From NCBI RefSeq assembly GCF_036971445.1, contig NC_091478.1, positions 10,540,001-10,604,000 of the forward strand: a DNA stretch of 64,000 nucleotides. Direction: 5' to 3'. A program made the position numbers and the translations under genes. The notes under the pieces are model-generated. The model had not been told where the DNA came from and made no database searches. It saw only the letters and a program-made list of their open reading frames with translations. Below are positions 5,073 through 53,302 of the stretch, one piece after another; position 1 is the stretch's first letter, and each line of letters opens with the position of its first letter. This stretch comes from Narcine bancroftii. Its lineage: Eukaryota.

Positions 5073-5205
5073 ATGCGAGAAAAGAGAAATGATTCTGTAG
5101 ACTTCGTCAAGGATTTTCAAGAGTATCTCACGCAACAAACACAGCATGTAAACATGATTTCTGGTTCGGTTTGTAATGAAAAGGAACCAGAAGTACTTCA
5201 GCCTG
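5073..5205 (+). CDS. IKZF5: IKZF5 (Pegasus) copy A, coding exon 1
   Basis: MREKRNDSVDFVKDFQEYLTQQTQHVNMISGSV is the Pegasus N-terminus. 133 nt, donor CTG|gtaag, acceptor at 5040-5041. Confidence 0.95.
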
Positions 5206-7289
5206 GTAAGAAAATGCTTAATTTACACACACATAACTTACAAAGGATTTATCATTATTATGGTGTTTCTACATTTATATTCAATATAATGCTAATATTG
5301 AAAATATTAGTACTGAAACATCTCCCTTCAAAGCACTAAAAAGTAGGAGCCACATCTTAGGATTGTTTGCATATGTATCAGTCTTTTTGTGTAATCCGGA
5401 GGTTCATTTCTCTCCCTAAACTGAGAGGGCATTTTGATCAATTTCATTATGGCATGTGAAATATGAACAATTTGTCGTCTGATGGTAATTTGTAAAATAT
5501 TGTACATTACACCATGGCGAAATTGATGAAAATAATGTAAGGAACAAATTCACGAATTTTGTTATCCTTTTGTTTTTTTATAAACCTAGTTTTAAAAATA
5601 ATCCTTTTTATATATAAAAAAAATATTGGCAGAGTTCAACTCCCATGTCTGACAGCCTTTGAGTTCTTTACTCACGACGATTCTTCATATGTGAGATAGA
5701 ACAGTGAACTTTGAACTACCGGTATTCTAATTGGAACCATATACCAAGCTACCCTTATGTGATATCTATGTGTAGATTTCTATGGGGGTTAAATAAACAT
5801 TATTCAAATCATCTTGATTATTTAATACAATCCACTGTGGATTCAGACTCATTTAGTTATTTAATATCTTTATCCAGAGATGGTAGGAAGTTGTTTCTTT
5901 TGTTTTTTTAAAAAAGAGTAGTCTGTGAACACATTGTTGTAAAAGACTGATGGAAAGTAACTTTGTGAATCTCTTAGTTATGGTAGCTCAGTGCAATGCC
6001 AGTATTTGAATATGGTTGACTGAATGATGGCTCCATCTTCAACCTCTTTGAAGTGCATACTCCTTGGAGAGTGCTGTTGCCTCTCAAATTTAGACTCATC
6101 TGTCACTGTACTCCTTTAGTTTGTTGAATCTTGTTTCTATTCTGGCCACTGTGAATTTGCTGTTATCAACATCAAAATATTCACAGATTGTATTATTTGT
6201 AAATGATTGCTCTTTGGCCAACTTACAGCCTTTGACATGGTTGAGCAGATCAACTCCCATATCAGAATATCGCTGACCTGATTGCATTCTTATCAATCTA
6301 GTTATAGCTAAAGAATTGACTTCAGTGGCTTTTCTTGCTCTTGTACTGAGAGTGCCAAGAATTCTTCCAGTGGAAAAATCTGCCATCAGTACCAGTTAGG
6401 ATTATATTATGTCATTTGAGCATTGTTAACTTTATGAAATGGCCATGCAAGATCAAGTTGGGGAACATTTGGGATGGATACGAAATACTAATCTGGCAAA
6501 TACTCCTCCCATGCTATGAAGCAGTAAATTTTTTTTAAAGTCATTGAGAAATAGTGCAAAATAACATTCAGGTCAACTATATGTTGTGTCTCTGTTTATC
6601 CATCCAGTTTCTTCTACAGCTTTTGATGCAGTCAACCCCACCATCCTCCTCTTTTATCAAGCTTAGTTCCAGTTTTGCCTGTCTCATTATATCAGCAGTG
6701 CTTTAATTCCCTCCTAGAACTATTATCTCGAGTCTTTGAAGAATCTTTTCTTGACTACTTCATTGCGTTTGTAACTGCCTTTATGATTAGAACTTGTCAA
6801 ACTCCTTTAGGGCTTTAAGCAATGATAGTAAAAGACCAAAATCACATGTCTATGACTTGCTTATTGGTCTTGTGGTGTTGTACAGCTGCTAGATTTCCTA
6901 CCTTACAATTGCTTTTTTGGCTGATGAGATCTCAAAAATAAAAATCCAAGTTTGCATTAGTGTCCATTTCCACACATTACCTTTTCCTGACATCTTTTTC
7001 TATCTTCCTTAGAATTAAAAAAAAATCATTTTTATATCAACGTGATTTTTTTTTCTGATTTGACAATTATCAGGATTTATGTTGGCTATTTTGCAGTTTG
7101 CTTACCAATTCAAGGTAACTGAGTTTAATTTGTCATATGCTATATATTTCCCAAGATTTTGCCTGTTTTATGAATTTAATCCCTTTGTCTTTTATGTTAT
7201 TTGAATGCATGCAATATAAATTGTATCTATGAAGTATGGATATTTATTTGGTGATAACTTGTTGGGAAATGCTGATAATTCAACACCAA

Positions 7290-7455
7290 ATCGAATCCAG
7301 CACTGTATGTAAGGAGTTTGTACATTCTCATGTTCTCCCCATGTCTGCATGGGTTTCCTCCGGGTGCTCAGGCTTCCTCCCACTGCTCAAAATTTACCGG
7401 GGCTTGTAGGTTAATTGGGCAGCATGCACCCATGAGCTGAAGAGGCCTGTTACTG
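7290..7455 (+). mobile_element. tRNA-derived SINE fragment (HE1/V-SINE-like)
   Basis: Core ggagtttgtacattctc...gggtttcctccgggtgctc, also seen at 16430, 8325 (-) and 40180 (-). Confidence 0.7.
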
Positions 7456-8107
7456 TCAAACTACCAGCATTACTTCATCACTGACATTAACAAGAAGTTT
7501 GGGACTTTCACCTGAATGCTTTAAGTCCAAAACTTGCTAGAGAAGCTTAGTTGTCCAGCAACATTAAATATCACATGAAGACCAGTACTTGGTTTTGAAT
7601 TTACTGCAGTTCTCTTGTTGATATTGAGTAATTGCCACTAAACTGCACCAGGTTAGATCAGGTACAGAATCATGAATGAAGAGGACCAGTCTTGAGAAAG
7701 AAAGGCAAGGAAGTGATCAGTAACATTTCTTTTAATTGTGTTGGATGTGATGTTTTTATTTAAGTTACTTCAAATTATTTTAATTGGTTTTCAATAATTA
7801 TTGAAATAATCTGTTAAAGCACGGGACATGGCTTTCTAGCCAGCATTCAATTATTTCATGGGTGAGACCTTGATCCACTTACAAAAGTCCTATAGCTGCA
7901 CAGACCCTTAATAATTTAGATTAGACAGCATCAAAGCTCCCTGTTGAATTTGGTGGATAGGTAAAAGACAAGGGTATAGTTTTTGCAAAATTCAGTGAGT
8001 GGCTGGGGAGGGGGAGGAATGTGTTGCATTTTGGTTCAATGATTAGTTTCTTGAAGTTTTCTCTTGTATGAAACAATTTTTATGATAGGTTGTACTTTTA
8101 TTGGCAG

Positions 8108-8290
8108 CTGGAACTGAAAATCATCAAAATGGAATCCATCCTGCTTCTGTTGAAGTTTCTCTCGATGATGGCTCTGGGATGATCGGAGATGGGCCAGAAA
8201 GAACAGCTGATGGAAAGTTGAAGTGTCAATACTGTAACTATGCTAGCAAAGGAATAGCACGACTGATGGAACACACCAGAATGCACACAG
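8108..8290 (+). CDS. IKZF5: IKZF5 copy A, coding exon 2 (ZF1: CQYCNYASKGIARLMEHTRMH)
   Basis: Acceptor ggcag|CT and donor ACAG|gtatt give 183 nt, phase 1-1, encoding a C2H2 finger. Confidence 0.95.
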
Positions 8291-8321
8291 GTATTCTAAA
8301 ATTTAAATTAATTAAATTTAA

Positions 8322-8570
8322 ATTTAGACAAGCAGCATGGTAACAGGCCATTCTGGCCCACAAGCCTGTGCTGCTCAAGTACACCCAATTAGCCTACATT
8401 GTCAGCATATTTTGAAGGGTGGGAGGAAACTGGAGCAATTGGAGGAAACCCACACAGTTATGGGGAGAATGTACAAACTCCTTACAGACAGCACCACATT
8501 CAAACCCAGCACACTGGTATTGCTTTTCCCAGAAAGGTGTTGCACTAAATGCTACGCTAACCATGTCGCC
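8322..8570 (-). mobile_element. tRNA-derived SINE (HE1/V-SINE-like)
   Basis: Reverse complement of the SINE family at 16430, with an (aaattt)n tail. Confidence 0.75.
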
Positions 8571-10226
8571 TTGTATTCTGTACACTATCTAAATGACAAA
8601 TTATTGGTTCTATTGTTTGAATGAAGTTGTGAGTCTCGTAAAAGGCAATTTAACATAAAGCTATAAACCAGTCCCCAGTTTCTTTAATATGATCAAATTT
8701 GGTATTCCCTCATGGATTAGATACTTGGACATCTTACCATTAAACATAGTATTCAAAACAATGTTAAAATTATTAAAGCCAAACTTCTCCCTTTAAACAG
8801 TTGAATTTTCATGGAAGAATTTACGGGAACTCAACTGTTATGCAATAAATCGCTATACACATTAACAAGTAATTTTAAATTTGGTTTGTGCCATTATATC
8901 TACATTATGTACACGTTAATTTTTTATGACATTTGTCACTTATTTGCATCTGAATAAAAATTTGACAAATGCAGAATGAGTTGGTGGTCTCTTGCAGCTG
9001 GCAAGGCACATGCACAAGTCCATTTTCCTTATGACCATTTTAGTGATCTTGTACTGGGATTCTCTGTTTCTTGAGATAAAAGGAGGCTGTACTAATCTCC
9101 AGCATTACATAGACCCTTCAGAAATGTTACCAATTGTTTAAGCACAAGGATGTAGTTTGTAGTCTGTTTACCTGCTTTCATTTAATGTGCCTTAGAACCT
9201 TGTGTTTATTTTTGTGTAATCTGGAATTTATTTTAGGATTGAGGATACAGATGATGGATGTCTTATTCTGTTTTTGAAATAGTAGAATTGAATACATCTT
9301 TGGGTTACTGGAGATCATCTTTATGTATGCAGTTTTCCTCTAATTGGCTAATAGAACATTAATAATGGGTAATTAGTCCTAGATTATTTCATTTCAGGGA
9401 AATTAATCTCAAAGAACATATCCAATATAAAAAAAGATGAACAAAAATGCGAGTGAGTAGGAGGTTGTGTTAGGATATTCTAATTAACAGGGTAGTGGTG
9501 CTATTCATTGATCACTACTCTGTGAGCTGAACACAAACTGTTGGCAAGCTTTGAGATGTAACAATGTGGCACACCAGCAGATCTGGACAAGAAATAGTGT
9601 GGGTTGGCCCATCAATCAGATTCACTAGCCATACTGGATAGAAACCAAGGAATAGTATTTAAATTTAATGTAAATTAATTTGCAGAAAATAAAATAACAA
9701 GAATGAAAGAATGGGTGGAATGGAAAAATAAATATGGAAATAAAATTAAAAATTAAAATTATCAAGATTTGTTAACTTCTGAAGAAAGAATCCAAAAATT
9801 GTTAAAATATAATTTTATGGCCAAGGAAATTGTTTTCTGTAAGTAAAAATTGGCACACTGTTAAAAATTCACATGCCTCTGAATGCAGCAACCTTTTGTC
9901 CATACTAAATGCATTTAAGATGCAGGGAGGAGAGTTTAAAGGAAATGTGAAAGGCAAATTATTTTATACAGAGTAGTAGGTGCTTGAATTAGGTACTCAG
10001 GAATAGCGGTGAAGCATACAATATTATCGTTTAAGAGGCTTTTAGAAGGACAAATGAATATACAGAGAATAGGGATATGGATCACATGCATGTAGCAGAG
10101 TTTTCTTTCAACTTGGACATCATGTTTGGTGCAGATATGTGGGCCAATGGACCTGCATCTGCATTTTGTGTTAACTGGAGAACTGGGGGGGGGGGGGGGG
10201 GTTAATAAAACCACAATATTCTATTA

Positions 10227-10644
10227 CAGGTACACAATCCTTTATCCTGTCTTCTAAAATCTGGAAAGCTCCAAAAACCGGCATTTTTTCCTGGTGCTGG
10301 TACAGCGGAGGGAGAGAGAGAGAGAGATAGCAGGGCCACTAGTTTGAGTGGGTGGGCGAGGGGGGGGGGGGGGAGAGAGATGGCAGCGTGACTCGGGTGG
10401 GCAGGGGGGGAGGAGAAGGAGAGACGGCAGTGAGACTCGGGCGAGGGGAGAGAGAGATGGCAGCGTGACTTGAGGGGGGGGTGGAAAGAGAGATGGCAGC
10501 ATGACTGGAAGGGGGTGGATACGGCAGCACAATTCAGATGGGGTTAAAACTGGAGCAGCTGGCTTTTGTTCTGAAATCTGGAAAAAATCCGAAATTTGGA
10601 ACACCCTGTCCCCCAAGGGTTCCAGACAAAGGATTGTGTACCTG
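10227..10644. mobile_element. Tc1/mariner-pogo type MITE with an internal G-rich repeat
   Basis: Perfect 17-bp terminal inverted repeats CAGGTACACAATCCTTT...AAAGGATTGTGTACCTG, with TA on both sides (TSD). Confidence 0.85.
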
Positions 10645-10859
10645 TATTGATTTAATGCTGAGTAAAGGTGGGATACTGTGCAGGTAGATGTCTGGGTCAT
10701 TTTCATATTCAAATGTGAAGAATTTACACCATAACATTGAGAGCTATTAAGTTCTCCATTATTGAAATCCTCTTTAAAAAGGTTTTGCTAAATCATCACA
10801 ATTAGTTTTAACAGTGCACCTCTATAAAATGAAAAGCATTTGTAATTAGTTTGGGATAT

Positions 10860-11380
10860 AATTTAAGAGTAGGAAGGTTCTGCTACAATTGTACATGGTA
10901 CTGGTAAAGCCCCATCTGGGGTGCTGTGTACAATTCGGGTCTCCTTACTTGAGAAAGGATATAACTGACCTTGGAAATGGTGCAGAGGAGATTCATCAGG
11001 TTGATTCTGCAAATGATGGGATTAGATTATGAGGAGAAGATGGGTATTCTTGGATAAGACTCATTGGATTTAGAAGGATGATGGGTTTCTTGTGGAAACA
11101 AAACTATGGAAGGATTATATAAGATGGAAACAGGGAAGTTGTTTCCACTGGCAGGTGAGACTAGAACGAAAGATTTATATGAATAGGTTTAAGACAATGA
11201 AGAGGAATTGCTTCTCCCAGAAAGTAGAGAATTCTCAGACACGGTCTTGAAGAATGAGGGATATAGTGAATGAGCAGGTAAGTGGAGCTGAGACCGTGGC
11301 CAGATCAGACATTATCTTAATGAATGGGAAAGCAGGCTCATCAGGCCAGATGGTCTAGTCCTCCCATTACTTTTGTTTTA
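10860..11380 (+). mobile_element. CR1 LINE 3' fragment
   Basis: Degenerate LY..LV.PHL..CVQF.SP..RKDI..LE.VQRRF motifs. Confidence 0.8.
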
Positions 11381-12329
11381 TAGTTTTTGTTGAGTGCATT
11401 TGGGTTCCTATTATTGCTATGTTAGTCCATTCTCAATATCTCTGCAATCATATCGAAAACCTGAACTATTGAAGGATAAGAAACATGGTTGTAGAGATGG
11501 AAAGAATATTTTTTTTAGAGGAACCAATGTTATTTGTAGTGTATTGAAATATAGTTTATGTTTATATAATTGAAGTTAGTTGGGCTTGGATGCAGAAGTA
11601 GGAAAAGTAATTAAGGTATTAAAATAAAAAGTATGAACTAAGAATTTATTTTTATCCAAAATTCTGCATTTGAAGATGGAATGGAATTAAAATAATGAAA
11701 TCAAAAAAGACATTTTAATAGCTTACGTGGCATTGAGAAAAGAGATGTGAGAAATTCTAAAAAGGAATAATGAAGTGGCACCAATGTTGAATGTTGTGAA
11801 CACGCCATATTGTTGGTAAAAAGACAAAATATTTCCTGAAAATAGAGGAGAATGAAGGGAGAACTGCATAAGAAATCCTATTTGATAAATTCTCATTTTG
11901 AAATTGCTAACGGTGCGTTGGATAGTAGAAAAATGCAATTGCAAATACTGGAAATCTGAAATAAAACAGGGTGGAAATACTCAGGTCAGGCCGCATCTGT
12001 AGAGAGAGAAAAACAGTTGATATTTGAGGTCTGATCTTTCAGGATATACAATTACTTGTGATATCTTGAACTGAGGATTTTTTTTAAAGGGGGAAGAAAA
12101 AGAATGACAATAAGTAAATCCCTTTCAATCACTGGAATAGCACAAGGATCCTGTGTGGTCCTGGGTAACTTCTTATCTCTATCAATGATGACAAGCTGTT
12201 GAAATATAATGCACTCGGGTTTGCTGTTGATACAAAGCAAGATGGGAACATAAGGGAATGATGCAGCATTCAAATAAGTGTCGACAGGAATGTAGCACAT
12301 GTGAAGTTTCTACTTCGGCAAATGAGTAG

Positions 12330-13065
12330 AACATTACAGCACAATTCAGGCCCTTTGGCCCACAACATTATGATAATCTTTATAAATCTGCTCAACGATC
12401 TAAACCTTCCCTACCTCATAGCCATAACCCTCAATGTTCCTAAGAATGCTTTAAATGTTCCTATTGTACCAGTCTTCACCATTTCAAGCATCCACTGCAC
12501 TAGGTGCAAAAGGAAAAAAAAACATATCCCTGATGTCTCCCCTAAACTTTGTTCCACTCAGCTTAAACGGTTGTCCTCTGATATTTGATATTGTTGCCCT
12601 TGGAAAAAGGTGTTGGCTGTCCACCCTATCTATGCCTCTATAATCTTGTGGACCTCTTATTAAGTCACCTCTCATCCTTCTTCGCACCAAAGAGAAAAGT
12701 CCTACCTTTGTTAACTTTGCCTCAAAAGATTCATTCTCCAATCCAGGCACCGTACTGGTAAATCTTCGCACCTTCTCCATAGCATGCACATCCTTCCTGT
12801 AATGAGGTGACCAGAACTGAACATAATATTCTAAGTGTTCTATACAGCTGCAACATTGGCTAAAGACTCTTGATCCCAGTCCCCTGACTAATGAAGGCCA
12901 GAAGTCCATGTCTTCTTAACAACATGTGCCATCCCTCTTCTTCCACACAGTTAAGAATCCTGCCATTAACCATATACTCCACCTTTAAATTTGACCCAAA
13001 AGGCATCATTCACATTTAACTGGATTGAACTCCATTTGCCACTTCTCTGTCCAACTCTGCATTTT
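12330..13065 (-). mobile_element. CR1 LINE 3' fragment
   Basis: ORF 12484-12909 has HLEYYVQFWSPHYRKDVHAMEKV...LFSL.RRRMRGDLI. Confidence 0.9.
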
Positions 13066-14214: not shown

Positions 14215-15143
14215 GTGAAAAGCCCCATAGGTGCCATTTGTGTCCATTTGCTTCAGCTTATGAACGTCATCTTGAAGCACACATGCGCTCACATAGAGGT
14301 GAAAAACCATACAAATGTGAGCTTTGTTCATTTCGTTGCAGTGATCAAAGTAACTTATCTCACCATCGTAGACGCAGACATAAACTTCTTCCACTGAAAG
14401 GACGCAGGACGTCTTTGACCAATAAAAGAATGATGGGAATCTTACAGAAAAAGTCTGGCTACTCCCTGAGTTATGGGAGAAGACCAATGATTAATTTCAG
14501 TTCTCTGCCAATGCTGGTGCAGAAGACAGATTACCTTGATGAATTTTCTCATAACCTACCAGCTGAATCTTATGAGAGTCTTGGAAAGGCTCAGACAAGT
14601 GGAATCTCAAGGGATATTCAGGACATGGTTGATAATCCATTAAACCAGCTATCTGCTTTAGCTGGCCAGCTTTCCAGCCTTGCACATGATGACCAAGCTC
14701 CAGCATCTTCTGATGTCGCATCTTGCAGGGATGAAAAACCATATGTGACACAAATTTCTATTGCACCAAATGTTTCCACTGTGGTTTCAAGTGTGGCACA
14801 GAGCTCCTCCAATGTTAGTCCTGACAGACATCCAGTGCATAATCAGAGAAACTTCAGTCCTGTAGCAGGACCAAGTAGTGAGCACAGTGCTCACATGAGC
14901 TCACCATGCATGACGAACAGCCAACCTAGCACCCCTACTCCTCCAATTCAAGTCCAGGACCCCCAGCTTTTGCATCATTGTCAACACTGTGATATGTATT
15001 TTGCAGACAATATCCTTTACACCATCCATATGGGGTGCCATGGGTATGAGAACCCATTTCAATGTAACATATGTGGATGCAAATGTAAAAATCAATACGA
15101 CTTTGCTTGTCACTTTGCTAGAGGTCAGCATAAACAAATTTAA
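14215..15143 (+). CDS. IKZF5: IKZF5 copy A, last coding exon (ZF2, ZF3, linker, C-terminal dimerisation fingers ZF4-5); spliced CDS 1245 nt, 414 aa
   Basis: Acceptor tacag|GT, then an uninterrupted ORF with CQHCDMYFADNILYTIHMGCH and CNICGCKCKNQYDFACHFARGQH, ending at TAA 15141-15143. Confidence 0.97.
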
Positions 15144-23510: not shown

Positions 23511-23699
23511 CCTAGTACCAAACGTTATGTTGCCCTGAAATGAGAGGACTCTTGTTTGTTTTTACAAAGCCGCTACGTTCCAGGAAATAATTTCCATTTT
23601 CCCGGAACGCGGTCTGTGTAAAAAGATCTGAACGGGAATAAGAAATCATTCCCGTTCCGACATTTAACCTCGACCCCATGTAAATCTCCCGACCTCCTG

Positions 23700-25080
23700 C
23701 AGTCAAAAGGATCGATGACGCGCGATTCACAGCCATGGCATCACAGTCCCACGTACGGCAGACGTCCCCGCAGCGGCGTTGCGAGTGTGAACGGGGACTC
23801 CCGGAAGGGAGACGCCTCAGAATGGAAAAAAATCACGCCACCCCTCCAGTTCCGACCTCGCCACCATCGGATTCCTGAACACTCAGTTCAAGACTCATTT
23901 CAGGGTTCTTATTTTCCACATTTTTTTAAAATTGAATGTTTATTTTCTAGATTGCCCACGTAGCTCTTTGTTTACGTTTCTTTGATTTTTCCATACGTAC
24001 CTTTCCTTGGTTAATGCACTACCAGTTAGTCGAAATTTCGACGTGACCCTCTGGGGAAAAGTGATGCACTCCGACAATAAATCTGAACTTTGAACATACC
24101 CTGAACTAAACTGGAACGAAGCGCAACGATTCAATCAAGTTGCTGGGTGGAAATTCGGGTTGTGCAGGACGGTAACGTTCCCCCCCACCCCACCCCACCC
24201 CACCCCCAGGTGAATTCTTCGCCTCACAACCACCAGTGATAATCGTTCCGAGATAGCCACCGGCTCAGCGTATCTGGACACGCTGCCAGACCTGCTTAGA
24301 TCCTCCAGCGTTTCGGCTCCAATGTCCGGACTTTCGTGCATTGCTTCCCTCTATGTAGTATCCAGGAGATCATTTGATACCGTGGCCCCCTCCGTCAGGA
24401 ATGACACTGCGGGCTTGGCCCCCTGAGGAATGAGACAACGAGCGAGAAAAGCAACAGAAACGACTCACGACTACACCCTTGAAGCAGGATCGTGGCCAAT
24501 GCAATCTCGTGGCCACAAAGCAAAGGAAAATTAACCAGCTGCAGGACAAGTGCCCCCCCCCCCCAATCCCATTCTCACGAGTTGACTCTCGTGGCGGTCG
24601 CTCCCGGAACCCCCATTCATTGTTTCGACGTGGGCACGTCACTCGGCTCTCATTGGGCCCAGCGTTTCCAGGGCGACTGTTCCCGTGGGGACCCGTTCAG
24701 CCGTCGCACTGATTCCTTCCCTCGCCGACCCTTGACCCCCGGCTTTTGTTCGCGCTGCTGCTTCGAGCTGCCGGAGCGGCGACGTTCGACCGACCGACCC
24801 CCAGAGGAGGAGGAGGAGGAGGAGGAGGAGGAGGGGGGGGGGGGAGCAGCCCGGCGCCCACGATGCGGCCGGGAGCGCCGCGGGGTTCCTCGGCTGGGAC
24901 CGGCGGCAGGAGAGGGCCGCGCCGCGCGGGGCGCCCCGAGTAGACGTGGAGGTAGGCGGCCGGCCGGCCGGCGGACCCCCCCCCCCCCGAGCCGAGGGTT
25001 TCGTGTGGCTCCATCGGTTTAGTAGGAATAGTGTCTGGCAGCGGACTGTCCCCATGGGCGTGGGTTTGTATCGAGGCCAT
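23700..25080. promoter_or_regulatory. CpG island, promoter and non-coding exon 1 of IKZF5 copy B
   Basis: Second GC/CpG-rich block. It shares GGCTTTTGTTC and CGCTGCTGCTTC with island 1, has a (GAG)n tract, and a probable donor GGAG|gtaggc at 24951. Confidence 0.8.
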
Positions 25081-25484
25081 TCCAAAGGAGTTCCCATCTC
25101 TGTTTAAATGCTACATTTACAATGTAACACGCACGAAATTCTTCAACTTTCCAACCCAGAGATGAGGGGCCCAGTGAGGAATGAATGAACTGGCGACCCC
25201 TGCCTCACAAGACCAGTGCTCTGACCACTCAGCTCACCCTGTGTTTGCATTTGTGGTTGTTGCACGACACTTTAAACCTAGAAGTGCTTTTTTTTTAAAA
25301 AAAGCATGTGTATGTTTAGCAGCCTATGACCTCCTCCCTTGGAATGGCCACCCCTGTCTGGATCCTTCACTCTCCTCCTCTCGAACGGAGTACGCTGCTT
25401 CAGCACAACTCGCCCTGATGGTAGACCTTCGGCGAGGTCAGCCGGTGGTTGAGCCAAGGACTCGACTCTCCAGCGGGGCAGGAC

Positions 25485-27850: not shown

Positions 27851-27852
27851 AG

Positions 27853-32629: not shown

Positions 32630-32699
32630 GGAAGGTTAAGTGGTGATACAGGTACAGGAGGGAAAGTAGCTGAGAAGTAATAGGAGAAAGGGCAAAGAG

Positions 32700-33135
32700 C
32701 TAAAAGGGTATCTCTGAATGAATGGATGGATTAGGGAGCTGCAGGGAAGGAGACAGTGAGGTAAGAAAAGAGAGAGAGGGCAGGGGAGGGGGTTAACTGA
32801 ATTTGGAGTTGATGATGTCAGGTTGGAGACTGCCAAAATGGAATATACAATGATGTTCCTCCAATTTGTGGGTAGCCTCGATACGGCGGGACAAAAGACC
32901 TTGGCACACATGTCAGTACAGCACTGGGGAGTGGAATTGAAATGGCTGGCCACTCAGAGGTCCTTGTGGTTACAGCAGACAGAGCGAAGGTCCAGTTCTA
33001 GTCTCCCTAATGTAGAAGAGACCGCATCGGTGAACCAGATGCAGTGAATGACCACTACAGATTCACAGATGAGGTGTTTATTCACTTGAAGGACTGTTTG
33101 AGGCTATGAATGGTAGTGAGGGACGAGATGTAGCA
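32700..33135 (-). mobile_element. Penelope-like element fragment (GIY-YIG region)
   Basis: Minus-strand motifs YI.ET...F and ASHFNS..., same family as 46160-46870. Confidence 0.6.
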
Positions 33136-33136
33136 C

Positions 33137-33447
33137 TTATTATAGTGACAGGGGTAGGGGTAACCTCTCTTTCGCTACTCTCTGTCACCTTTCCTCCAGC
33201 TTTCCCTTCCATCAGAGAGTTACTCTTCTTGGGCCTCTACCCTCTTCCCCATCACTTTGTTTCCTACTCTTCTACCCTCCCACTTGTATTCACTTATTAC
33301 TTCTTACCTGTAAACAATGCAACTCTCCCTCCTTCCCCCTTCCCTTCTCCTTTATGCTTCCTCCTCCTTCCCTCCACTTCAGCTGACAGCTTGTTTCACA
33401 CTCCCACATCTCCCCCTAATGTTTCCCCTTAAAATTCTCCCCTTTCA
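33137..33447 (+). repeat. Pyrimidine-rich segment of about 310 bp, direct-repeat copy 1
   Basis: Near-identical to 35286-35590; ORFs 33106 and 35294 give almost the same peptide. Confidence 0.9.
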
Positions 33448-33459
33448 CCTTTAACCCAT

Positions 33460-33653: not shown

Positions 33654-33669
33654 CCCCCATGTCATCTGG

Positions 33670-34730
33670 TTTGTGTCTCACCTAACCTCAGTTGGAAAAT
33701 CCTGTTTGGATTTACCTTATCTATATCCCTTTAGATTTTTAAAAAATCTCCATCAAATCTCCCTTCATTTTACAGAGTTCCAGATAATAAAGTTCTAATC
33801 TCTTCAACCTTTCTCAATAACTCAACCCTTCAAGTCCTTGTGAATTTTCTCTGCTCTCTTTGAATCTTATTGATATCTTTCCTGTGAGTAAGTAACCAAA
33901 TCTGCACACAGTACTCCATATTTGGCCTCGACAATATCTTGGGCAACTTGCATCCTAATTTCTATACTTAATACTTTAATTTATGAAGGCCAATGTTCCA
34001 AAAGCTCTCTTTATGATTTATCTGTGATGCCACTTTCAGGGAATTATGTATCTGTATTCCCAGATCCCTCTGTTCTACAGCACTCCTCAGTGCCCTACCA
34101 TTTACAGTATATGTCCTACCTTGTGTGTCCTTCCAAAATGCAACACCTCATACTTGTCTGAATTAAATTCCATCTGCCATTTTGCCATCCATTTTTCCAG
34201 CCTTTGAAGGCCTTTCTCACTAACCACAATACCTCCAATCTTTGTGTTATCTGCAATTTTGCTGACACATTTACCACATTGTCATCTTGATAATTGATAT
34301 AGATGGCAAACAACAATGGACTAGCACTGATCCATTAGTCACAGGCCTCCAGTCAGAGAGGCAATTATGACTTCTCCCATAATGCCAATGTTGAATCCAG
34401 TTTACTACCTCACCATAAAGACCTGCCAATTGAACTTTCCTGACTAACCTCCTATGTGGGACTTTGTCAAAGGCCTTACTAAAGTCCATGCAGACAACAT
34501 TCACAGCCTTTCTTTCATCAATCTTTTTGGTTCCCTCCTTGAGAAATTCTATAAGATTGGTTAAACATAACTTACCGTGCACAAAGCCACATCAACTAAC
34601 CCTATTCAGTCCTTGACTATCCAAATACTGTATTTGAAATCCAATCTCTTAGAACACCTTCTTATAACTTACCTCTACTGATATCAGACTCAACGGTCTA
34701 TAATTTCTTGGGTTATTTTCAGAGCCTTTT
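33670..34730 (-). mobile_element. CR1 LINE RT fragment
   Basis: CLTNLIEF...VVCMDFSKAFDKVPH.RL..K is the CR1 RT core. Confidence 0.9.
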
Positions 34731-35116: not shown

Positions 35117-35249
35117 ATGGATGAAAAGAGAGCAGTTTCAGTGGATTTTGTCAAGGATTTTCAGGAATATCTCACTCAACAAACCCATCATGTGAACATG
35201 ATATCTGGTTCAGTTGGTGCAGAGAAGGAATCAGAATCCTTACAGACTG
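35117..35249 (+). CDS. IKZF5: IKZF5 (Pegasus) copy B, coding exon 1
   Basis: MDEKRAVSVDFVKDFQEYLTQQTHHVNMISGSVGAEKESESLQT. Kozak-like aacATGG, acceptor ttcag at 35085, donor CTG|gtaag, 133 nt. Confidence 0.95.
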
Positions 35250-35285
35250 GTAAGAGCTCTTGGAACTCTTAGAAATGTGTAAGAT

Positions 35286-35590
35286 TTATTATAGTGACAG
35301 GGGTAGGGGTAACCTCTCTTTCGCTACCCTCTGTCACCTTTCCTCCAGCTTTCCCTTCCATCAGAGAGTTACTCTTCTTGGGCCTCTACCCTCTTCCCCA
35401 TCACTTTGTTTCCTACTCTTCTACCCTCCCACTTGTATTCACTTATTACCTCTTACCTGTAAACAATGCAACTCTCCCTCCTTCCCCCTTCCCTTCATGC
35501 TTCCTCCTCCTTCCTTCCACTTCAGCTGACAGCTTGTTTCACACTCCCACATCTCCCCCTAATGTTTCCCCTTAAAATTCTCCCCTTTCA
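35286..35590 (+). repeat. Pyrimidine-rich segment of about 305 bp, direct-repeat copy 2
   Basis: Near-identical to 33137-33447. Confidence 0.9.
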
Positions 35591-37694
35591 ATGGTATATG
35601 GCTTATGTCAGTCCCAAAAGCTGTTTTTTCTCTTCACATCTGGTTAACCTAATAGCATTTTCTTCGTGATTGATGAGGAGGAATGATGTATTTCATTTAG
35701 AATTTAGCAAGATTTTTGAAAAATGTGCACACACAAAATGCACATGGATGTGAGAAAAGTGGAGAGTTTTGGGCGTTTGTGGTGGAGTAAGTTTTCATAG
35801 GTCGGCACAACATCATGGGCTGAAGTTCCGGTAGTGTGACATAATATTTTATGATGTATGTTAAAACTGGAGACTAAATATAAACTCATGGTTTATAAAG
35901 AAAAATGGGAAGGTAACCAAAATTGTTTCAATAATCAGGTGAAGAATGTGTGCAGGCACACATTAGAGTTTGCAGGTAATACAGAAAAGGGCCATCGACT
36001 TGTTCATGTGGGAAGAAAACTGTAAACAGTAGGAAGAAATTATTTGGTCAGATGGATAATATATAACAGTTGGAATACATTCAGGAAAAGATGAGGTAAT
36101 GAGTTTGGGGAGAAACTGGTGGTTATTGAGCAAAGAAGAAAAACAGGAATATTTAGATGAGGTTCCATAAATTCCTAAAGATGGAGTGGCAGATAAGGTG
36201 GTCAGAAAGGCATAAGGGATACTTGCCTTTATTAACTGAATCATAAAATACATCACCATATAACATGCTAGAACTGCATATGTTGAACCTTCTGATCAGG
36301 CTGTAATTATATGTGAGGTTGGATCGGAGAATTGATGAGGATATTTTGCATTCTTGAAAATTGTAATTCCCAGGAATGATTGCCTAGGTTGGAACTGTTC
36401 TCTTTGGGAGAGGAGGCTGGGGGAAAAATTAATTGGGGTGTAATTGGGGGCCCTAGAATTTAGCAAGATTTTTGAAAAAATGTGTGTATAGGACAGATTT
36501 GTAAACAAAAAAGATGTTTTAGTATCGGGATGCAGATTCAAAGTGTGGAGTTGAGGATTAATTTAATCACGAGAATAGTAAGAGACTGAAACTATTTTCT
36601 TGAAATCATGTTAGAGACAGAAACCCTCAGTACATTTAGAACATAACCTTGATTCAAGTTGAAATTATGGAATCTACAAGACAATGGACCAAGAACTGAT
36701 AACTTTCACCAATGCAGAAATGTAAATGAAAAGTGTATTCTGTGGTGAGTGGCTCTTTCCTAACTTCTCAAAGCCTTCATAATATCAGCCAGTTCCTAGT
36801 TTGTACCTTTATGGTATAATCTTTGTTTGCTTGGATCACAACTCTGCCAATACTACAGAGTTCAATGCAGCCCATTTGATTACTCTTTCCATTATCTTAA
36901 ACATTCCCTGTCTCTGACAATTAATACATTATTTCTGCACTGCTTATCATCAGTAAATATACTTCAATTCAGAAAGACTTCTTCAAACACCCTCCCAAAC
37001 AACCAAATTTTTTTCCAGCTAAAGACACATGGAAATGCCATAAGTTTCGTTTCCTCCAAATCCTGCTTCATTCTCATTTGGAATCACCGCAATTGAGAGC
37101 TACTGCCTCAAAAATTTTAAATTCCCTACCAAAACAACACTGAGTATGAAGATAGTTCACTAACACCTTTGCAATAAACAGTACATTGCCAGTGATGCAC
37201 ACCAGAAATGGTGATGGTCCAGGAGAACATTTTATAGCCATATGTGGATAGGCCTCCATGTGAAGAGGCAAAATTGGACCTTGATGAGAGAAGCTGGTCA
37301 TATAACACTTTGGGAACAGTGATCTATTAGCTTTAAGATCATTATTGAAAAGAATTTTATTTTACACAGTAATTCTGTGATAAGGAAATATAAGTTTACA
37401 CCAAAATGAACAAAGCTAGCATTTTTCTGGGTCAGTGTGTCTTTTTACACAGCTAACCGGGATTCTGCGAGCAAAAGAGGCGGGGACGTGTAACTCAACA
37501 GCGTTAGCATCTAGCGTCATGTATAACTTACTGTATTTAACAGCATGTTAGACCCACTTTTTTTCCCCAAAAAAGTGGCTCAAAAATATTCCCTTGGTCT
37601 TGTCTGTGAGGTTGAAATTAGGGTGATAATGGTGAGTAACTCCAACAGTAACACTCGGTCCTCGCACTGGTCATTGTTGTGTTAAGAAAGGAAT

Positions 37695-40600
37695 GCCGAC
37701 GGGATGGCTTTTTGGAGCAGCTTGTTGATGAGCCCACCAGAAGATTGGCTGTTTTGGATTGGGTGCTGTGTAATGAACCAGAAGTGAATAGGGAGCTTAA
37801 GGGTAAAGAACCCCGAAGAGGCTGTTATTACAATATGATTGAGTTCACTTTGAAATTTGAAAAGGAGAGGCTAAAGACTGATGCATCGGCATTTCACCAG
37901 AGAAAAGGAAACTACAGTTACATGAGAGAGCAACAAGCCAAAGTTGATTGGAAAAACACTCAATGGGGAAAGCAACAGATCAGCAATGGCTGGAGTTTCT
38001 GCGAGAAATGAGGCAAGTGCAGGACAGGTACAGACTGGAAGGAAAGAAATTTATAAATGGAAAAATGAGACAACTGTGACTGACGAGGGAAGTTAAAGCC
38101 AAAGTAAAAGCAAAGGAGAGGGCAGACAAGGAAGCAAAAACTACTGGGAAGACAGAGGACTGGGAAGCTTTTAAAAACTTAAAAAAAATACTTAGAAAAC
38201 ACAACTAAGAAGGAAAAGGTGAATTATGAAAGGACATTAGCAAATAATATCCAACAGGATACTAAAAGCTTTCTTATATAGTGGCAGCGCTGCCACTGGT
38301 GTGGGGGCAGGGGAGCAGAGATGCAGCATTCCTGCAGGCTCCAGCCACCTAGTCAATAGCCGTCAGCTCCGCACAGGCTTTGAACAGCCCGTTGAGGGAG
38401 CGAAGGTGGTTTTAGTTGAAATACCGTGCTGCGGGTCTGTGCCCAAGATGGTGGCACCTATAAATTGACAGTGGCCACAAGGGGCTGCAGACTATGGGGA
38501 AGCGGAAGCAGGGTACCAGAAGACGGGAGAATCATGCACTGTCTGAGAGAGAGAGAGAGAAGCAGAGGTGTCGACTGCGGGGTCAGTGAACATGGCGGCG
38601 GAACAGTGAGGGGGCTTTGTGGCTGAGGGACCAGTGCTTGCAGCGGGCGGCTAGCAACTCGAGGTGAGGAATCTGTGGAAGCTCTGGGCTGCTGGACACT
38701 GCTGTCGAGAGACTCACGCCGGACTGAATCCGCCGGCTGCGGACTGCTGGAGATTGGCTTGAACTGGCTGGAGGAGTCTCAGATGTCAGAACTGGGATGC
38801 GAGGCGGTGCCGAGGATGTTGAAGGGTTCTTGACCATGTCGGAGGTTCGGATCTGGAGTTCGGTTTGCCTATGGTTTGGACTGTACTCTAAGTGGCTGCA
38901 GGGACTGCGGAAGTGCTGGAGGTGAATCTACGGACACTCGATGACTCTGAGGGGGACTCTCTTTTGCTTCTCTTTCTGACTGTAAGTCATACTGTAAAAG
39001 GTGCTTAGGCAATTCTTGCCAGTGGTGAATCTGTCTGCCTTACAGCAGGCAACAAGAAATTTCATGTAATATGAAACTTTTTTTTATTACTATGATAATA
39101 AATGAATTTTGAGTAAAAGAGTAACAAAAGTAGACAGGACTGATAGAAAACGACACTGAAGAAATTGCAATGGGAGACAAGGAGGTGGCAGAAGAACTGA
39201 ATGAATATTTTGGATCAGTCTTTTCACTGAAAGACATTAGTAGCATACCAGACTCTCATGGGTCTCCGAGAAGAGAAGTGAGTGGAGTCAACATCATAAG
39301 AGAGAAGGTACAAGGGAAACTAAATTGTTTTTAAGGGTAGATAAGTTTCCTGGACCACATGGAATGCACCCTTGGGTTCTAAAGGAGACATTGGTAATGA
39401 TCTTTCAGGAATCAGTGGATTCCACATGGTTCCAGTGGACTGGAAGATCATGAATATCACTCCATTGTTTAAGAAGGTGGTGAGGCAGCAGAAAGGAAAT
39501 TATAGACCTTTAGCCTGACATCAGTCGTTAGAAAGCTGTTGGAGTTGATTGTCAAGGATGAGGTTACAGAAGACCTGGAGGTACCTGAAAGATAGGCCTA
39601 AGTCACTATTATTTCCTTAAAGGAAACCATGCCTGACAAACCTATTGCAATTTTTTTTTTAAGAGATCAGAAGTAGCACAGACGGGGGAGAAGCAGTGGA
39701 AAGGTGCCACACAAGGCAGGATATTAGCATGGGTAGAGCATTAGCTGATTGGCAGGAAACAGAGAGTAGGAATAAAAGAATCCTATTTTGGTTGACTACT
39801 GGTTACCAGTTGTATTCCACAGGGGTCAGTGTTGGAGCTGCTTTTTTTGATGTTGTATAGGAATGATTTGAATTATGGAAAAAATGTCTTAATGGCTAAA
39901 TTTGCAGATTATACCAAAATAAGTGGTAGGGTGGATGGTGCTGAGGATACAGAAAAGCTTGAATAGATTAGGAGAATGGGCAAAGAGGTGGGAGATGAAA
40001 TACAATGTTGGAATGTGTATGGTCATGCACTTTGGTAGAAGATATAGATGGGCAGACCATTATTTAGATGGAAAGAAAATTCAAAATTTTACCACAAAGG
40101 GACTTAAGTGGCCTCGTACAAGATACCCCAAAGGTTAACCTCCAAACTGAGTCGGTAGTGAGGAAGGCGAATTAAATTTAGACATTCAGCGCTGTGACAA
40201 GCCATTTTGGCTCATGAGTCCTTGCTGCCCAATTTATATCCAATTAACCTACACCCCCTGTATGTTTTAGAACAATGGGAGAAAACTGGAGCCCCCGGGG
40301 AAAACCCACACAGACCCGGAGAACGTACAAACTCCTTACAGACAGCATGGGATTTGAACCTTGGTCCCAATTGCTGGTGCTCTAAAGGCGTTGCCCTAAC
40401 TACTATGCCAACTGTGCCGCCCCATGTTGAATGTTGGTATACATTTTTAGAGCAATAGCATATAAGAGCAGGGATATAATGTTGAGACTCTATAAACACT
40501 TCTGAGACCTCACTTTGCACCATTTTGGGTGCCTTATCTGAGAAAAGGCATGTAGGCATTGGAGAGGGTTCAGAGAAGATTTACTAGAATTATACTCAAA

Positions 40601-41000
40601 ATGAAAGAGTTAGCATATGAGGAACCTTTGTCATTTTTTGGATTGTTCTCATTGGAGTATAGAAGGATGAGGGGGGACCTCATAGCATGTCAAATGCTGA
40701 AAGACCTGGACAGAGTAGATGTGGCAAGGATATTTCCCATGGGAGGGGAGTCTTGGTCAAGAGGGCACAATTTTGGGATAGAAGAGCGTCAATTTATAAC
40801 AGAGATGCAGAAACATTTCTTTAGTCAGAGGGTCATGCAGCTTTGGAAGTGAGGTCTTTGGATGTATTTGATTAGTCAGGACATCAGGGGTTGTGGGTAG
40901 AAAGCCAGGGAATGGTGCTGAGTGGGAGGATGGTTCAGCTCATGATTAAAATGGCAGAGCCAATAGCCATACCTCTGCTCCTCTATCTTGTGATATTGTG
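37695..41000 (+). mobile_element. Large degenerate CR1 LINE ORF2 with nested insertions (about 38280-39110 GC-rich element; SINE at 40170-40425 on -)
   Basis: DGFLEQLVDEPTR..AVLD.VL.NEP (endonuclease end), RT motifs, then ERVQRRFTR...FSLE.RRMRGDLI. Confidence 0.85.
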
Positions 41001-41848
41001 AGGTTGAAGGGGGACTTATTCAGCTCTATAAAATGATGTGAAGGGGCATAGATTAGGTTAATAGTGACAGTTTGTAAAAACACAATGCTGGAGAAACTCA
41101 GCAGGTCAAACAGTGTACTTTATAGAGCAAAGATAAAGGTAGTGATAATCTGTTTCTTAGAGAAGGATAATCTAAGATGAGAGAGTGTAACTATAAGGTG
41201 AAGATAGATTTTAGAAAGGACATGAGGGACTAGTTCTTCACTCAGAGGGTGGTAGGCATATGGAACAAACAGCCAGATAAAGACGCAAATACTTGCTTCC
41301 TTAAGAAACACTTTGAATAATTAGATGGATGGGAGGAGCTCGCAGGGGTGAGGGCCTAATGTGGAGAAGTAGGAGCAAAGCACGAGGGCATATTGTTTGG
41401 ATGAGTTGGGCCTGTTTCCATGCTGTAATTCTCTATCACTCTAATCGTGCGTGTAATCACAGTATTAAAAATCATAAAGTGTATAAATGGAGATGAATAT
41501 AAAATGTTGTCATAAGTTACTGGTAAAGATTTCAGAATACCACGTAATTTATAATATGTTATTTATTCAGTCCTTGGAAGTCACAACTTGTTTGGCATGA
41601 ACATAATTTTTATAAAATAGCAGATTCCTTATCTTTCCTTGAAGAATACCTTCACATTAAAAAATATACATTTTTTCAATTTGTGTTTTTAATGGTTTAT
41701 GTAGAAAAATACGTATTCGGTGGAAATTCACTATCTAAGTTGAGTGATATTTGCTTTGTAAATGTTTATTGCCAAACACTGACTCCTTTATGTGAAATTG
41801 CAGAGGGTTTTTGAATTTTTCTCACTTTTCTGAATGTATTACTATTAG

Positions 41849-42031
41849 CGGGATCTGAAATTGATCAGAATGGAATCCATCATGCTTCAGTTGAAGTTTC
41901 ACTGGATGACGGCTCAGGGGTCATTAATGATGGGCTGGAAAGGACATACGATGGAAAACTGAAGTGCCGCTACTGTAACTATGCTAGCAAAGGGACTGCA
42001 CGACTGACTGAACATATCAGAATGCACACAG
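41849..42031 (+). CDS. IKZF5: IKZF5 copy B, coding exon 2 (ZF1: CRYCNYASKGTARLTEHIRMH)
   Basis: Acceptor attag|CG and donor ACAG|gtaaa give 183 nt, phase 1-1; homologous to 8108-8290. Confidence 0.95.
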
Positions 42032-43689
42032 GTAAATGCTGTATGCTATTGATTGATACAGGATCTGCAATAGAAAAACATGATCAGATTTGCCAAAAGG
42101 ACCAGTACTGTGAAAATATAGCAAATGACAGACATTCCACAGTAAAATACAAGGATTTTGAATTCTTAGTATCTTGTATAATTCTGAATTATTAATATGA
42201 AATGATTTTGAGTCTTTTCATCCTAATGAGATCGCAACAGTGGTGGTGGGTTGTACATGAAGAGAAAATGTAATTGCAACAGTTAAATCCTAAATGAGAT
42301 TAATGTGAACTATTTAAATAGATCTCTGGACTTCCAATACCATCAAGTTTCATGTCCAGCATGAGGAGGGTGGTGTGTAAGCTATTTACTTAACAAAAAT
42401 TTGAAGGCTCCTTCCATTCAAAATATTAAAGAACTGCAATTAGATTGTATTTTCTGTAAGTTGATAGTTGATTTTATTAGTTAAGTGAGTGTTAATAACC
42501 TTTGTATGATCATTTGCTGGTTGGCAATGTAAGGGAGAGAAATTGACTTCAACAAATATATTTTTTCTAACATATCGGGAGTCCTTCTATAATTTTGTGC
42601 GGGTTGTCTATCAATTTATCTATTTATTCATTTGTTTCATTTCACACTGCTGGCTCAATGACATCTTGTTTCACCAGTTCATTCTCCTCTTTCAGGCAAG
42701 ACGTTCATTCCATGAACAAAACTATCACAATTCTCTACATCAGTTTGATTTATTTTAATGAGTACCAATGGGAGTCTCCATGTTTAAAGTAAAAAGGGCC
42801 AGGTATATCAAAAAAGCTAGTAAGGATTAAAGTGTAAAATATCATTGGTAACATCCAGCTGAGACAACTGTAGCACAATATGTAGTGCTCCTCTAGTGTG
42901 TCGGATGCTGTAAAACCAGCCAATAACAGCGACAGCTTTCATTTTTAATTACTTGAGGAATTTTTGAGCACCTCAGCGTCAAATTGTACCCGATGTTCAA
43001 TCCTGAAAACGTTATTCACTTTATTTTACAACATTATTATTTCTATTTGATTTTTGACCCACGTTTCTTCCTTAACACTTTTAAAAGCTAAAATCGGTGT
43101 CTGGCAACCTGACTATTCAACTGAAAATATAAACAAAAGTACTGCATTTGCTAGAAATCTGAAAAAACACTGAAAATACTACCATTGCTCAGCAGGTCAG
43201 GCAGCATCTGATAAGAGAAACAGAGTTAACATTCCATGTCCAAGATCTTTCATCAACTCTTAACTCCTTTGGTTTCCACAGATCTGCTTGACCTGATGAG
43301 TATCATCAGAAAAGGGCTGGAAATAATGTTAACACTTGATTGCAGCATAATTTATCTGTTAACTGAACTTTCAGCCTTTAATTGGTGAGGTTGAGTGATA
43401 CAAATCCATTGGAAACTCATTCATCACCCATGTGGGAGAAAGTTAATCACTCTGCAATTGACAAACATGAAATGTACAAATCCACACTGAGGAAAGAAAG
43501 AAGAGTACAACTATTCTGTCTTGTTAAAATTGCAACCATGCTGCTTGTTAATTGACAACCAAATAGCAATTTTAACAATAATCTAAGAGTTCCATGGATC
43601 CTTCAACACAGCTGAAGGACACGATTCTAGAAAAAAAATGCAAAGAGGGATAAAATGGCAAGGTTGTTGATCTATTCTTTCTGATACAG

Positions 43690-44627
43690 GTGAGAAGCCC
43701 CACAGATGTCACCTATGCCCGTTTGCTTCAGCGTATGAGCGTCACCTCGAAGCACACATGCGCTCACACACAGGTGAAAAACCATACAAATGTGAGCTAT
43801 GCTCTTTCTGCTGCAGTGATCGAAGCAATTTGTCCCATCACCGTAGACGTAGGCACAAACTTCTCCCCTTGAAAAATGCTAGGACCTGCCTAACCAATAA
43901 GAAAATGTTGGGAGTTTTACAGAAAAAAACTAGCAACTCCCTGAATTATGGCACAAGACTTCTGATTAATCTAAGTCCTCCTTCCATGGTGGTACAGAAG
44001 CCAGATTACCTCAGTGACTTTTCTCATGATGTTTCAGCCAACTCCTGTGAGAATTTGCGAAAGTTGCAGTCTGGTGGGATTTCGAGGGATACTCAAGATC
44101 CCTGTATTATAGTAGATAATCCATTAAACCAGCTTTCTACTTTAGCAGGCCAATTATCCAGCCTTCCACCTGAAAATCAAGCTCCAGCATCTCCTGAGGA
44201 TGTAGCCTGCCGAGATGAAAAACCATACGTGATCTCACAATCTGCGGCACCAGTCGTTTCCACGGTAGCTTCCAGTGTGGCCCAAAGCTCATCCCCTATC
44301 AGTCCCGATGCATGCCCCATGCACAGTCAGCAGAATTTCAGTCCTGTAGCTGGCCCCAGTAGTGAGCACAGTGTCCACACAAGCACGCCCAGCACGACGA
44401 ACAGCCAACCTAGCACCCCTGCTCCTCCAATTCAAATTCAGGATCCCCAGCTACTTCATCATTGTCAACACTGTGACATGTATTTTGCAGACAATATCCT
44501 TTATACTATTCATATGGGGTGTCATGGCTACAAGAATCCTTTTCAGTGCAATATCTGTGGGTGCAAATGTAAAAACAAATATGATTTCGCTTGTCATTTT
44601 GCTCGAGGTCAACACAAGCAAAACTAA
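43690..44627 (+). CDS. IKZF5: IKZF5 copy B, last coding exon; spliced CDS 1254 nt, 417 aa
   Basis: Acceptor tacag|GT, then an intact ORF with ZF2-ZF5 ending at TAA 44625-44627. Confidence 0.97.
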
Positions 44628-53300: not shown

Positions 53301-53302
53301 GG

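What the first reader, a model, noticed from the sequence alone, without database searches (positions are those of the whole stretch)
5073..44627. Two intact tandem IKZF5 (Pegasus) paralogues, each with its own CpG-island promoter
Seen: two full genes about 30 kb apart on the same strand, with identical exon phases (133, 183 and 929 or 938 nt) and no stops or frameshifts. They differ at many synonymous and amino-acid positions, and their introns show no visible similarity and carry different TE insertions. Established: human has one IKZF5, head-to-head with ACADSB, and Ikaros-family proteins associate through their C-terminal fingers, which are intact in both copies. Inference: this is an old local duplication kept by purifying selection, not haplotype duplication in the assembly. 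It would give this lineage an extra Ikaros-family member and allow A/B heteromers.
Basis: partly seen in the sequence, partly recalled or inferred. Interest (0 to 1): 0.8.

Follow-up and report, generated by a model that had tools for sequence, protein, structure and literature searches.

The report
Sharks' second, rewired Pegasus gene
This ray carries two intact neighbouring copies of the platelet-related transcription factor gene IKZF5 (Pegasus), a pair found in every sampled genus of sharks, rays and chimaeras, and one copy has fixed changes in its DNA-binding fingers, including loss of a linker threonine that likely serves as a cell-division off-switch, so it is probably a specialised extra family member rather than a spare.

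Summary
Confirmed: two intact, same-strand IKZF5 genes (A, 414 aa; B, 417 aa), 78% identical, dN/dS 0.11, the only two copies found in the genome; A is spliced in four runs. Both already stand in RefSeq as 'Pegasus-like' (identical to Narcine bancroftii proteins). The duplication is not lineage-local: A- and B-type proteins occur in 20 of 20 sampled chondrichthyan genera, chimaera included, so it predates that split (~420 My). No A-type protein turned up elsewhere. Evolution was asymmetric: 13 fixed changes on A's stem versus 2 on B's (p=0.007), after which A's DNA-binding domain froze (identical between this ray and chimaera). A keeps every canonical base-contact residue but changes helix position +1 in three fingers and turns the ZF2-ZF3 linker TGEKP into RGEKP (Thr in 133 of 133 other Pegasus clusters read, plus lamprey). 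Likely: A binds similar sites with altered affinity and partly escapes mitotic linker phosphorylation (inferred, untested). A/B heteromers and the link of the 24-kb CpG island to B are untested. I found no paper describing the pair, and the scan had not noted it before.

The parts
1300..1468 (-). Candidate exon 2 of the head-to-head ACADSB-like gene
   Evidence: Open frame between AG and GT; no PDB match by itself; gene identity rests on a same-strand exon 16 kb further out (G000:C22:10523943-10524089) whose best PDB hit is short/branched-chain acyl-CoA dehydrogenase 2jif, E 1.7e-20
2207..2230 (-). Candidate first coding exon of the ACADSB-like gene (ATG then donor)
   Evidence: Read from sequence; inferred
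2001..3740 (.). CpG island upstream of IKZF5-A, likely bidirectional promoter shared with the ACADSB-like gene
   Evidence: GC 0.57, CpG o/e 0.86; candidate non-coding-exon donor at 2641 unverified
5073..5205 (+). IKZF5-A coding exon 1 (133 nt)
8108..8290 (+). IKZF5-A coding exon 2 (183 nt, ZF1 with R85Q, T94I, I/M101T)
   Evidence: its 3' end appears as the loose end joined to exon 3 in 4 of 4 runs
14215..15143 (+). IKZF5-A coding exon 3 (929 nt; ZF2, ZF3, C-terminal ZF4-5)
14295..14297 (+). Codon AGA: Thr133Arg in the ZF2-ZF3 linker of A (RGEKP); also changes an internal donor from CAG|GTGAAA (B) to GAG|GTGAAA
23571..25480 (.). CpG island between the genes, likely promoter of IKZF5-B
   Evidence: GC 0.56, o/e 0.89; candidate donor at 24952; link to B inferred from position only
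35117..35249 (+). IKZF5-B coding exon 1 (133 nt)
41849..42031 (+). IKZF5-B coding exon 2 (183 nt, ZF1)
43690..44627 (+). IKZF5-B coding exon 3 (938 nt; ZF2, ZF3 with R146C, ZF4-5)
43774..44145 (+). In-frame GT-AG segment (372 nt) inside B exon 3; its removal would delete ZF3 and give 293 aa, matching RefSeq B isoforms of three other species
   Evidence: isoforms P0096, P0102, P0196; use in this species not shown

Best explanation
A tandem duplication of IKZF5, most likely in the cartilaginous-fish stem lineage, left a conservative copy (B) and a copy (A) that changed fast and then froze, and A likely works as a specialised Pegasus that recognises similar DNA sites with different affinity and is predicted to partly escape the mitotic phosphorylation that switches C2H2 proteins off. 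Shown: both genes are intact and constrained, A is spliced, both types occur in all 20 sampled genera, and A keeps the -1, +2, +3, +6 residues of ZF1-3 while changing position +1 of ZF1 (T94I), ZF3 (R150Q) and ZF5 (K404Q), R85Q and I/M101T in ZF1, and the ZF2-ZF3 linker (T133R). Inferred: the retained base contacts keep the GNNTGTNG-type motif; lost basic residues and the new linker Arg retune backbone contacts; loss of T133 removes one of two linker phosphorylation sites (the ZF1-ZF2 TGEKP stays); near-identical C-terminal fingers would let A and B co-assemble where they are co-expressed.
For: dN/dS 0.11. A spliced in 4 of 4 runs of one study. A 100/100 clade incl. chimaera, stem 0.12 vs 0.012 for B; A+B 91/91; second model 0.116 vs 0.009, A+B 93. 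13 vs 2 fixed stem changes, binomial p=0.007; within-A identity 92.5% vs within-B 90.1% over 18 matched species. A residues 80-165 identical to this ray's in 13 of 19 other A proteins, chimaera included, at most 2 differences. Linker-2 Thr in 106 of 106 readable (of 110) and 27 of 27 further non-chondrichthyan Pegasus clusters, 3 of 3 lamprey and 21 of 21 B rows; Arg in 20 of 20 A rows; Arg at that place in 16 of 1581 generic linkers. Linker Thr/Ser phosphorylation by TOPK/PBK inactivates DNA binding in mitosis, shown for Ikaros, Sp1, YY1 (PMC4359306, passages). Helix positions computed; numbering agrees with human Y121 in ZF2, a disease site kept in both copies (PMC12461113, passages).
Against: No functional data for either copy; phosphorylation of Pegasus T133 itself was not seen in any paper read. 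The first linker keeps its Thr, so escape could be small. A burst of substitutions followed by constraint also fits relaxed selection then re-fixation; no branch-site test was possible without other species' coding DNA. In the three skates the A/B rate difference vanishes against gar (38:39, 40:41, 31:32). At positions 257 and 69 lamprey sides with the state I called derived, so polarity there is unsure. R150Q also appears in two divergent rodent copies. The B clade itself is weakly supported (91/79).
Confidence: 0.5

Rival explanations
1. Both copies are kept for regulatory reasons (split expression or dosage); A's fixed changes accumulated during a relaxed phase after duplication and have little biochemical effect.
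For: All canonical base-contact residues are identical; separate, unrelated CpG islands; only 6-7 differences in residues 80-165.
Against: The changes hit sites invariant in bony vertebrates, B and lamprey (T133, R150) and are then fixed in 20 of 20 A rows; in contigs both genes' stretches occur in the same four runs, which gives no sign of exclusive expression but cannot rank it.
Confidence: 0.27
2. A is a weakened binder that acts mainly as a modulator of B (or of other Ikaros proteins) through its C-terminal fingers, like DNA-binding-poor Ikaros isoforms.
For: A loses two basic residues in ZF1-3 and the linker Thr; linkers are needed for stable binding (PMC4359306 passages); finger-less isoforms are dominant negative (PMC5071621 passage).
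Against: A's DNA-binding domain is frozen from chimaera to ray and ZF2 is unchanged, which is not expected of a dispensable domain.
Confidence: 0.12
3. T133R was fixed for its effect on splicing: the codon change weakens an internal donor that in B yields a ZF3-less isoform, so A became the full-length-only copy and B the source of the short modulator.
For: B donor CAG|GTGAAA vs A GAG|GTGAAA, in-frame 372/363-nt segments; ZF3-less isoforms are annotated for B in Mobula, Heterodontus, Rhinoraja and, from a nearby donor, Callorhinchus, and none was seen among the A proteins listed.
Confidence: 0.08
4. History rival: the duplication predates the split of bony and cartilaginous fishes, and bony vertebrates lost one copy.
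For: Trees forcing B+bony or A+bony are not rejected (AU p 0.17; p 0.158); lamprey is a long, distant root and informative columns are 1:1:1.
Against: Best trees join A and B (93; 91/91); 15 columns have A=B against bony vertebrates; no A-type protein among the non-chondrichthyan hits of two searches, including bichir, sturgeon and gar.
Confidence: 0.15
5. Assembly artefact (duplicated haplotype) or a decaying pseudogene.
For: None found.
Against: dS 1.17 and unrelated introns; both types in 20 of 20 genera; A spliced.
Confidence: 0.01

Closest known systems
IKZF5 / Pegasus of bony vertebrates (human 419 aa, motif GNNTGTNG, IKZF5-related thrombocytopenia)
   Different: Two tandem copies; A has RGEKP, R150Q, T94I, R85Q, K404Q; B has R146C. 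B is the more conservative protein (76 vs 71-73% to gar/mammal) though A holds the position beside ACADSB.
RefSeq 'zinc finger protein Pegasus-like' loci of chondrichthyans (XP_069755890.1 = A, XP_069755883.1 = B; Callorhinchus XP_007902121.1 = A-type, XP_042192734.1 = B-type)
   Same: The window's proteins are 100% identical to the first two; the pair is already in the annotation of many species.
   Different: The labels do not separate A from B (the chimaera and thorny-skate A-type proteins carry the plain name 'Pegasus'); no description of the duplication or of A's changes was found.
Second Pegasus copies of teleosts ('Pegasus-like') and divergent rodent copies
   Same: An extra IKZF5 in a vertebrate lineage; some teleost proteins also changed ZF1 positions 85 and 94 (to S and M/L), two rodent copies have R150Q.
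   Different: They keep the TGEKP linker; teleost copies presumably stem from whole-genome duplication (recalled, not tested), not a tandem event.
Mitotic C2H2 linker phosphorylation (TOPK/PBK; Ikaros, Sp1, YY1, CTCF)
   Same: B has two canonical TGEKP linkers in its DNA-binding domain.
   Different: A has replaced the second Thr by Arg, seen at 1% of generic linkers; no test on any Pegasus was seen.

Membership tests
IKZF5/Pegasus | Three N-terminal and two C-terminal C2H2 fingers | tested here: met
   Five fingers per copy at 84-104, 112-132, 140-161 and two C-terminal
IKZF5/Pegasus | Best hits and tree placement with IKZF5 orthologues | tested here: met
   Named top hits are Pegasus; tree with lamprey Pegasus as root
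IKZF5/Pegasus | Base-contact residues (-1,+2,+3,+6) of ZF1-3 as in mammalian IKZF5 | tested here: met
   G/A/R/E, Y/R/H/A, D/S/N/H in both copies; none is among the fixed differences
IKZF5/Pegasus | Synteny with ACADSB and PSTK | tested here: met
   ACADSB-like gene head-to-head with A; PSTK-like exons 10 kb downstream of B (weak KTI12/AAA_33 hits; name recalled from motifs); human synteny recalled
IKZF5/Pegasus | Binding of GNNTGTNG and repression | not testable with these tools
   Motif from PMC10291195 and PMC12461113 passages
Ikaros family | Self- and cross-association through the C-terminal finger pair | not tested
Canonical TGEKP-linked C2H2 arrays | Thr/Ser at first linker position | tested here: not met
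   Not met for A's second linker (Arg, 20 of 20), met for its first linker and for both linkers of B
Chondrichthyan-wide tandem pair | A and B adjacent in other species | tested here: inconclusive

The most novel reading that the evidence does not exclude
All cartilaginous fishes carry a sixth Ikaros-family gene, Pegasus-A, selected more than 400 My ago to drop a mitotic linker phosphorylation site so that it stays on chromatin through cell division (a bookmarking Pegasus), while Pegasus-B keeps the ancestral switch and supplies a ZF3-less modulator isoform; the pair would be a natural experiment on what the TGEKP phospho-switch and helix position +1 do.
Probability: 0.15. Interest if true: 0.75.

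Novelty: new variant of a known kind. Interest (0 to 1): 0.45.

Why it matters
Reviews count five Ikaros-family genes and say little is known about Pegasus (PMC5071621, PMC8689071, passages). A second Pegasus kept across sharks, rays and chimaeras with a frozen, altered DNA-binding domain changes the family inventory for the sister group of bony vertebrates, warns that 'the shark IKZF5 orthologue' is ambiguous (the copy often labelled Pegasus is the derived one), and offers naturally tested substitutions (T133R, R150Q, T94I) in the domain where human missense variants cause thrombocytopenia. It is still a tandem transcription-factor duplication, a common kind of event, already visible in automated annotation.

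Tried and rejected
Haplotype duplication and pseudogene: rejected. Homology of the two CpG islands: not above shuffles, and a control island scored higher. Conserved intronic element: the one match is a dispersed repeat. Further copies nearby: none in 164 kb. Rfam at gathering threshold: 0 matches in the window. Contig depths were not used to rank expression. Complex prediction of the A and B C-terminal fingers: tool not available, no result. Representative search was swamped by multi-finger proteins; useful only for three lamprey Pegasus sequences. First quick tree placed lamprey among teleosts, the finished tree did not; the caecilian row (partial) and the window's own rows (identical to the Narcine rows) were left out of trees. 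No solved Pegasus DNA-binding structure was among the 60 best of 67 PDB matches. Literature: searches (IKZF5+duplication+shark: 1 paper, a table entry only; 0; 0; 80 papers, 25 listed, none with ikzf5; 2124 papers, 40 listed, none with ikzf5; too loose to exclude); supplements of the elephant shark genome paper (no hit), whale shark paper (one orthogroup label), catshark paper (not readable). Lentaigne 2019 is not held; primary papers on Ikaros-family evolution in subscription journals could not be searched and may mention the pair. Earlier scan notes: none on this gene.
Full report
Observation. The window holds two complete IKZF5 coding structures on the + strand. A: 5073-5205, 8108-8290, 14215-15143; B: 35117-35249, 41849-42031, 43690-44627. 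Exon lengths are 133/183/929 and 133/183/938, all introns are GT-AG, and the frames are open (414 and 417 aa, five C2H2 fingers each). They share 324 of 414 aligned residues; Nei-Gojobori gives dN 0.132, dS 1.17, dN/dS 0.11 (bootstrap 0.075-0.16); in the fingers 8 non-synonymous against 47 synonymous differences. A six-frame search of the own genome found these two loci only (127 of 8581 candidates scored) and tblastn over 164 kb found no further piece. Introns share only a dispersed repeat. CpG islands lie at 2001-3740 and 23571-25480. The first sits between A and an acyl-CoA dehydrogenase gene on the - strand whose exon 16 kb outside the window matches ACADSB best. That the second is B's promoter is inferred from position; the islands are not detectably homologous.

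Expression. Contigs of four runs (one study, one organism, RNA by guess) cover A exon 3 and about 750 bases of 3' sequence to the end of the laid stretch, and in 4 of 4 the loose end before exon 3 is the 3' end of exon 2, i.e. spliced RNA. These runs may be the samples behind the annotation and are not independent. Indirect support for both types being spliced: unnamed 414-aa proteins of the B cluster (P0149, contig 1355 bases) and the A cluster (P0187, P0189, P0192, P0193, P0195, contigs under 2 kb) can only fit on such contigs without introns (inference).

How old and how wide. The window's A and B are 100% identical to RefSeq proteins of Narcine bancroftii. A- and B-type proteins were found for the same species label in 18 cases, plus Chiloscyllium (one A protein shared by two species, B in both) and Scyliorhinus (A in one species, B in another; listings were cut at 15 members): 20 of 20 genera, including the holocephalan Callorhinchus. 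The chimaera-elasmobranch split is put at about 420 My (PMC6238376, abstract start in search listing). With lamprey Pegasus as root, the finished tree of 59 rows has A 100/100, B 91/79, A+B 91/91; a 26-row tree under another model gives A+B 93. Trees that force B or A with bony vertebrates are slightly worse but not rejected (AU p 0.17; 0.158), so a chondrichthyan-stem origin is favoured, not proven. No A-type protein was found outside chondrichthyans in two searches (120 of 303 and 120 of 129 hits listed). Adjacency in other species rests only on shared contig lengths and, in some, near-consecutive accessions.

Asymmetry. A's stem is ten times B's (0.12 vs 0.012; 0.116 vs 0.009). Counting columns fixed in at least 90% of a clade including the chimaera, with the other paralogue matching the bony majority, gives 13 for A and 2 for B (p=0.007; polarity doubtful at two columns). 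Relative-rate counts favour A in 18 of 18 species against a mammal (p<0.05 in 14) and 15 of 18 against gar (p<0.05 in 9; not in the three skates); species are not independent. After the burst A is at least as constrained as B (92.5% vs 90.1% mean identity), and its residues 80-165 are identical between this ray and 13 of 19 other A proteins, chimaera included.

What changed. In mammalian numbering A has R85Q, T94I, I/M101T (ZF1), T133R (ZF2-ZF3 linker), R150Q (ZF3), K404Q (ZF5), and T257A, T338M, T340S, S342C outside the fingers; B has R146C. T94, R150 and K404 are all helix position +1; positions -1, +2, +3, +6 are untouched. T133 is Thr in 106 of 106 and 27 of 27 readable other Pegasus clusters (unnamed clusters outside the shark clusters were counted as non-chondrichthyan), 3 of 3 lampreys and 21 of 21 B rows, Arg in 20 of 20 A rows; Arg stands there in 16 of 1581 generic linkers. 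Linker Thr/Ser phosphorylation by TOPK/PBK in mitosis cuts DNA binding of Ikaros, Sp1 and YY1, and linkers lock fingers onto DNA (PMC4359306, passages). Human IKZF5 missense variants in the N-terminal fingers impair chromatin binding and cause thrombocytopenia (PMC8431765 and PMC12461113, passages); Y121, one such site, is kept in both copies. The T133R codon also weakens an internal splice donor that, in B, bounds an in-frame 372-nt segment matching annotated ZF3-less B isoforms of three other species.

Mechanism. Most likely (0.5): A is a specialised Pegasus with the same core motif, retuned backbone contacts and one linker phospho-site fewer, while B keeps the ancestral properties; both could co-assemble through C-terminal fingers that differ at two finger residues (Pegasus is reported to interact with family members, PMC5071621 passage). 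The sequence facts are shown; every biochemical step is inferred. Rivals: regulatory partition with near-neutral protein changes (0.27), A as a weak-binding modulator (0.12), selection on the splice donor (0.08); separately, an older duplication with loss in bony vertebrates (0.15).

Novelty. The two loci are already annotated, unlabelled as to type, in many chondrichthyan RefSeq sets, and extra Pegasus copies exist in teleosts and rodents. I found no text describing the duplication or A's substitutions (searches; supplements; the catshark supplement could not be read; subscription papers on Ikaros evolution were out of reach). For PMC4359306, PMC10291195, PMC8431765, PMC5071621, PMC8689071, PMC11203038, PMC12461113 and PMC7867147 I saw passages only. 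Verdict: real, clade-wide, a new variant of a known kind; interest 0.45.

Noticed in passing
window 54665-60317 (+): PSTK-like gene (P-loop exon 54665-54871, further candidate exons 55779-56117, 57373-57660, 60093-60317; weak KTI12/AAA_33 hits) lies on the same strand as IKZF5; from recall the human genes converge, which would imply a local inversion in one lineage.
   Followed up: partly
window 53302-54640: GC-rich 56-bp tandem repeat, 23.9 copies, 90% matches, directly upstream of the PSTK-like start and forming most of its CpG island; gives long repetitive open frames on the - strand with no Pfam match.
   Followed up: partly
window 43774-44145 (+): In-frame internal splice candidate in B exon 3 removing ZF3; the same acceptor is used by a mouse-relative isoform (P0093) with another donor, so the acceptor looks old.
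   Followed up: partly
proteins P0400, P0401, P0410, P0412, P0415, P0417, P0420, P0421, P0423: A divergent set of teleost-type Pegasus proteins changed the same ZF1 positions as shark A (85 to S, 94 to M/L), a possible parallel after an independent duplication.
   Followed up: no
proteins P0037, P0061, P0080, P0097, P0110: Divergent Pegasus proteins in caviomorph and cricetid rodents, two with R150Q as in shark A.
   Followed up: no
window 38381-39000: Small CpG-rich patch (620 bp, o/e 0.63) inside B intron 1, probably repeat-derived.
   Followed up: no
window 34271-34591 (-), 52245-52616 (-), 3167-3592 (+): Retroelement fragments: reverse-transcriptase-like (RVT_1, E 2e-6), integrase-like (rve, E 6e-6), and a LINE-like frame without Pfam match.
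   Followed up: no
window 33129-33447 and 35278-35590: Two 96%-identical copies of a 319-bp repeat flank B's first coding exon.
   Followed up: no
window 14184: One-base T insertion in A intron 2 in contigs of runs X1 and X2, likely an allele.
   Followed up: no
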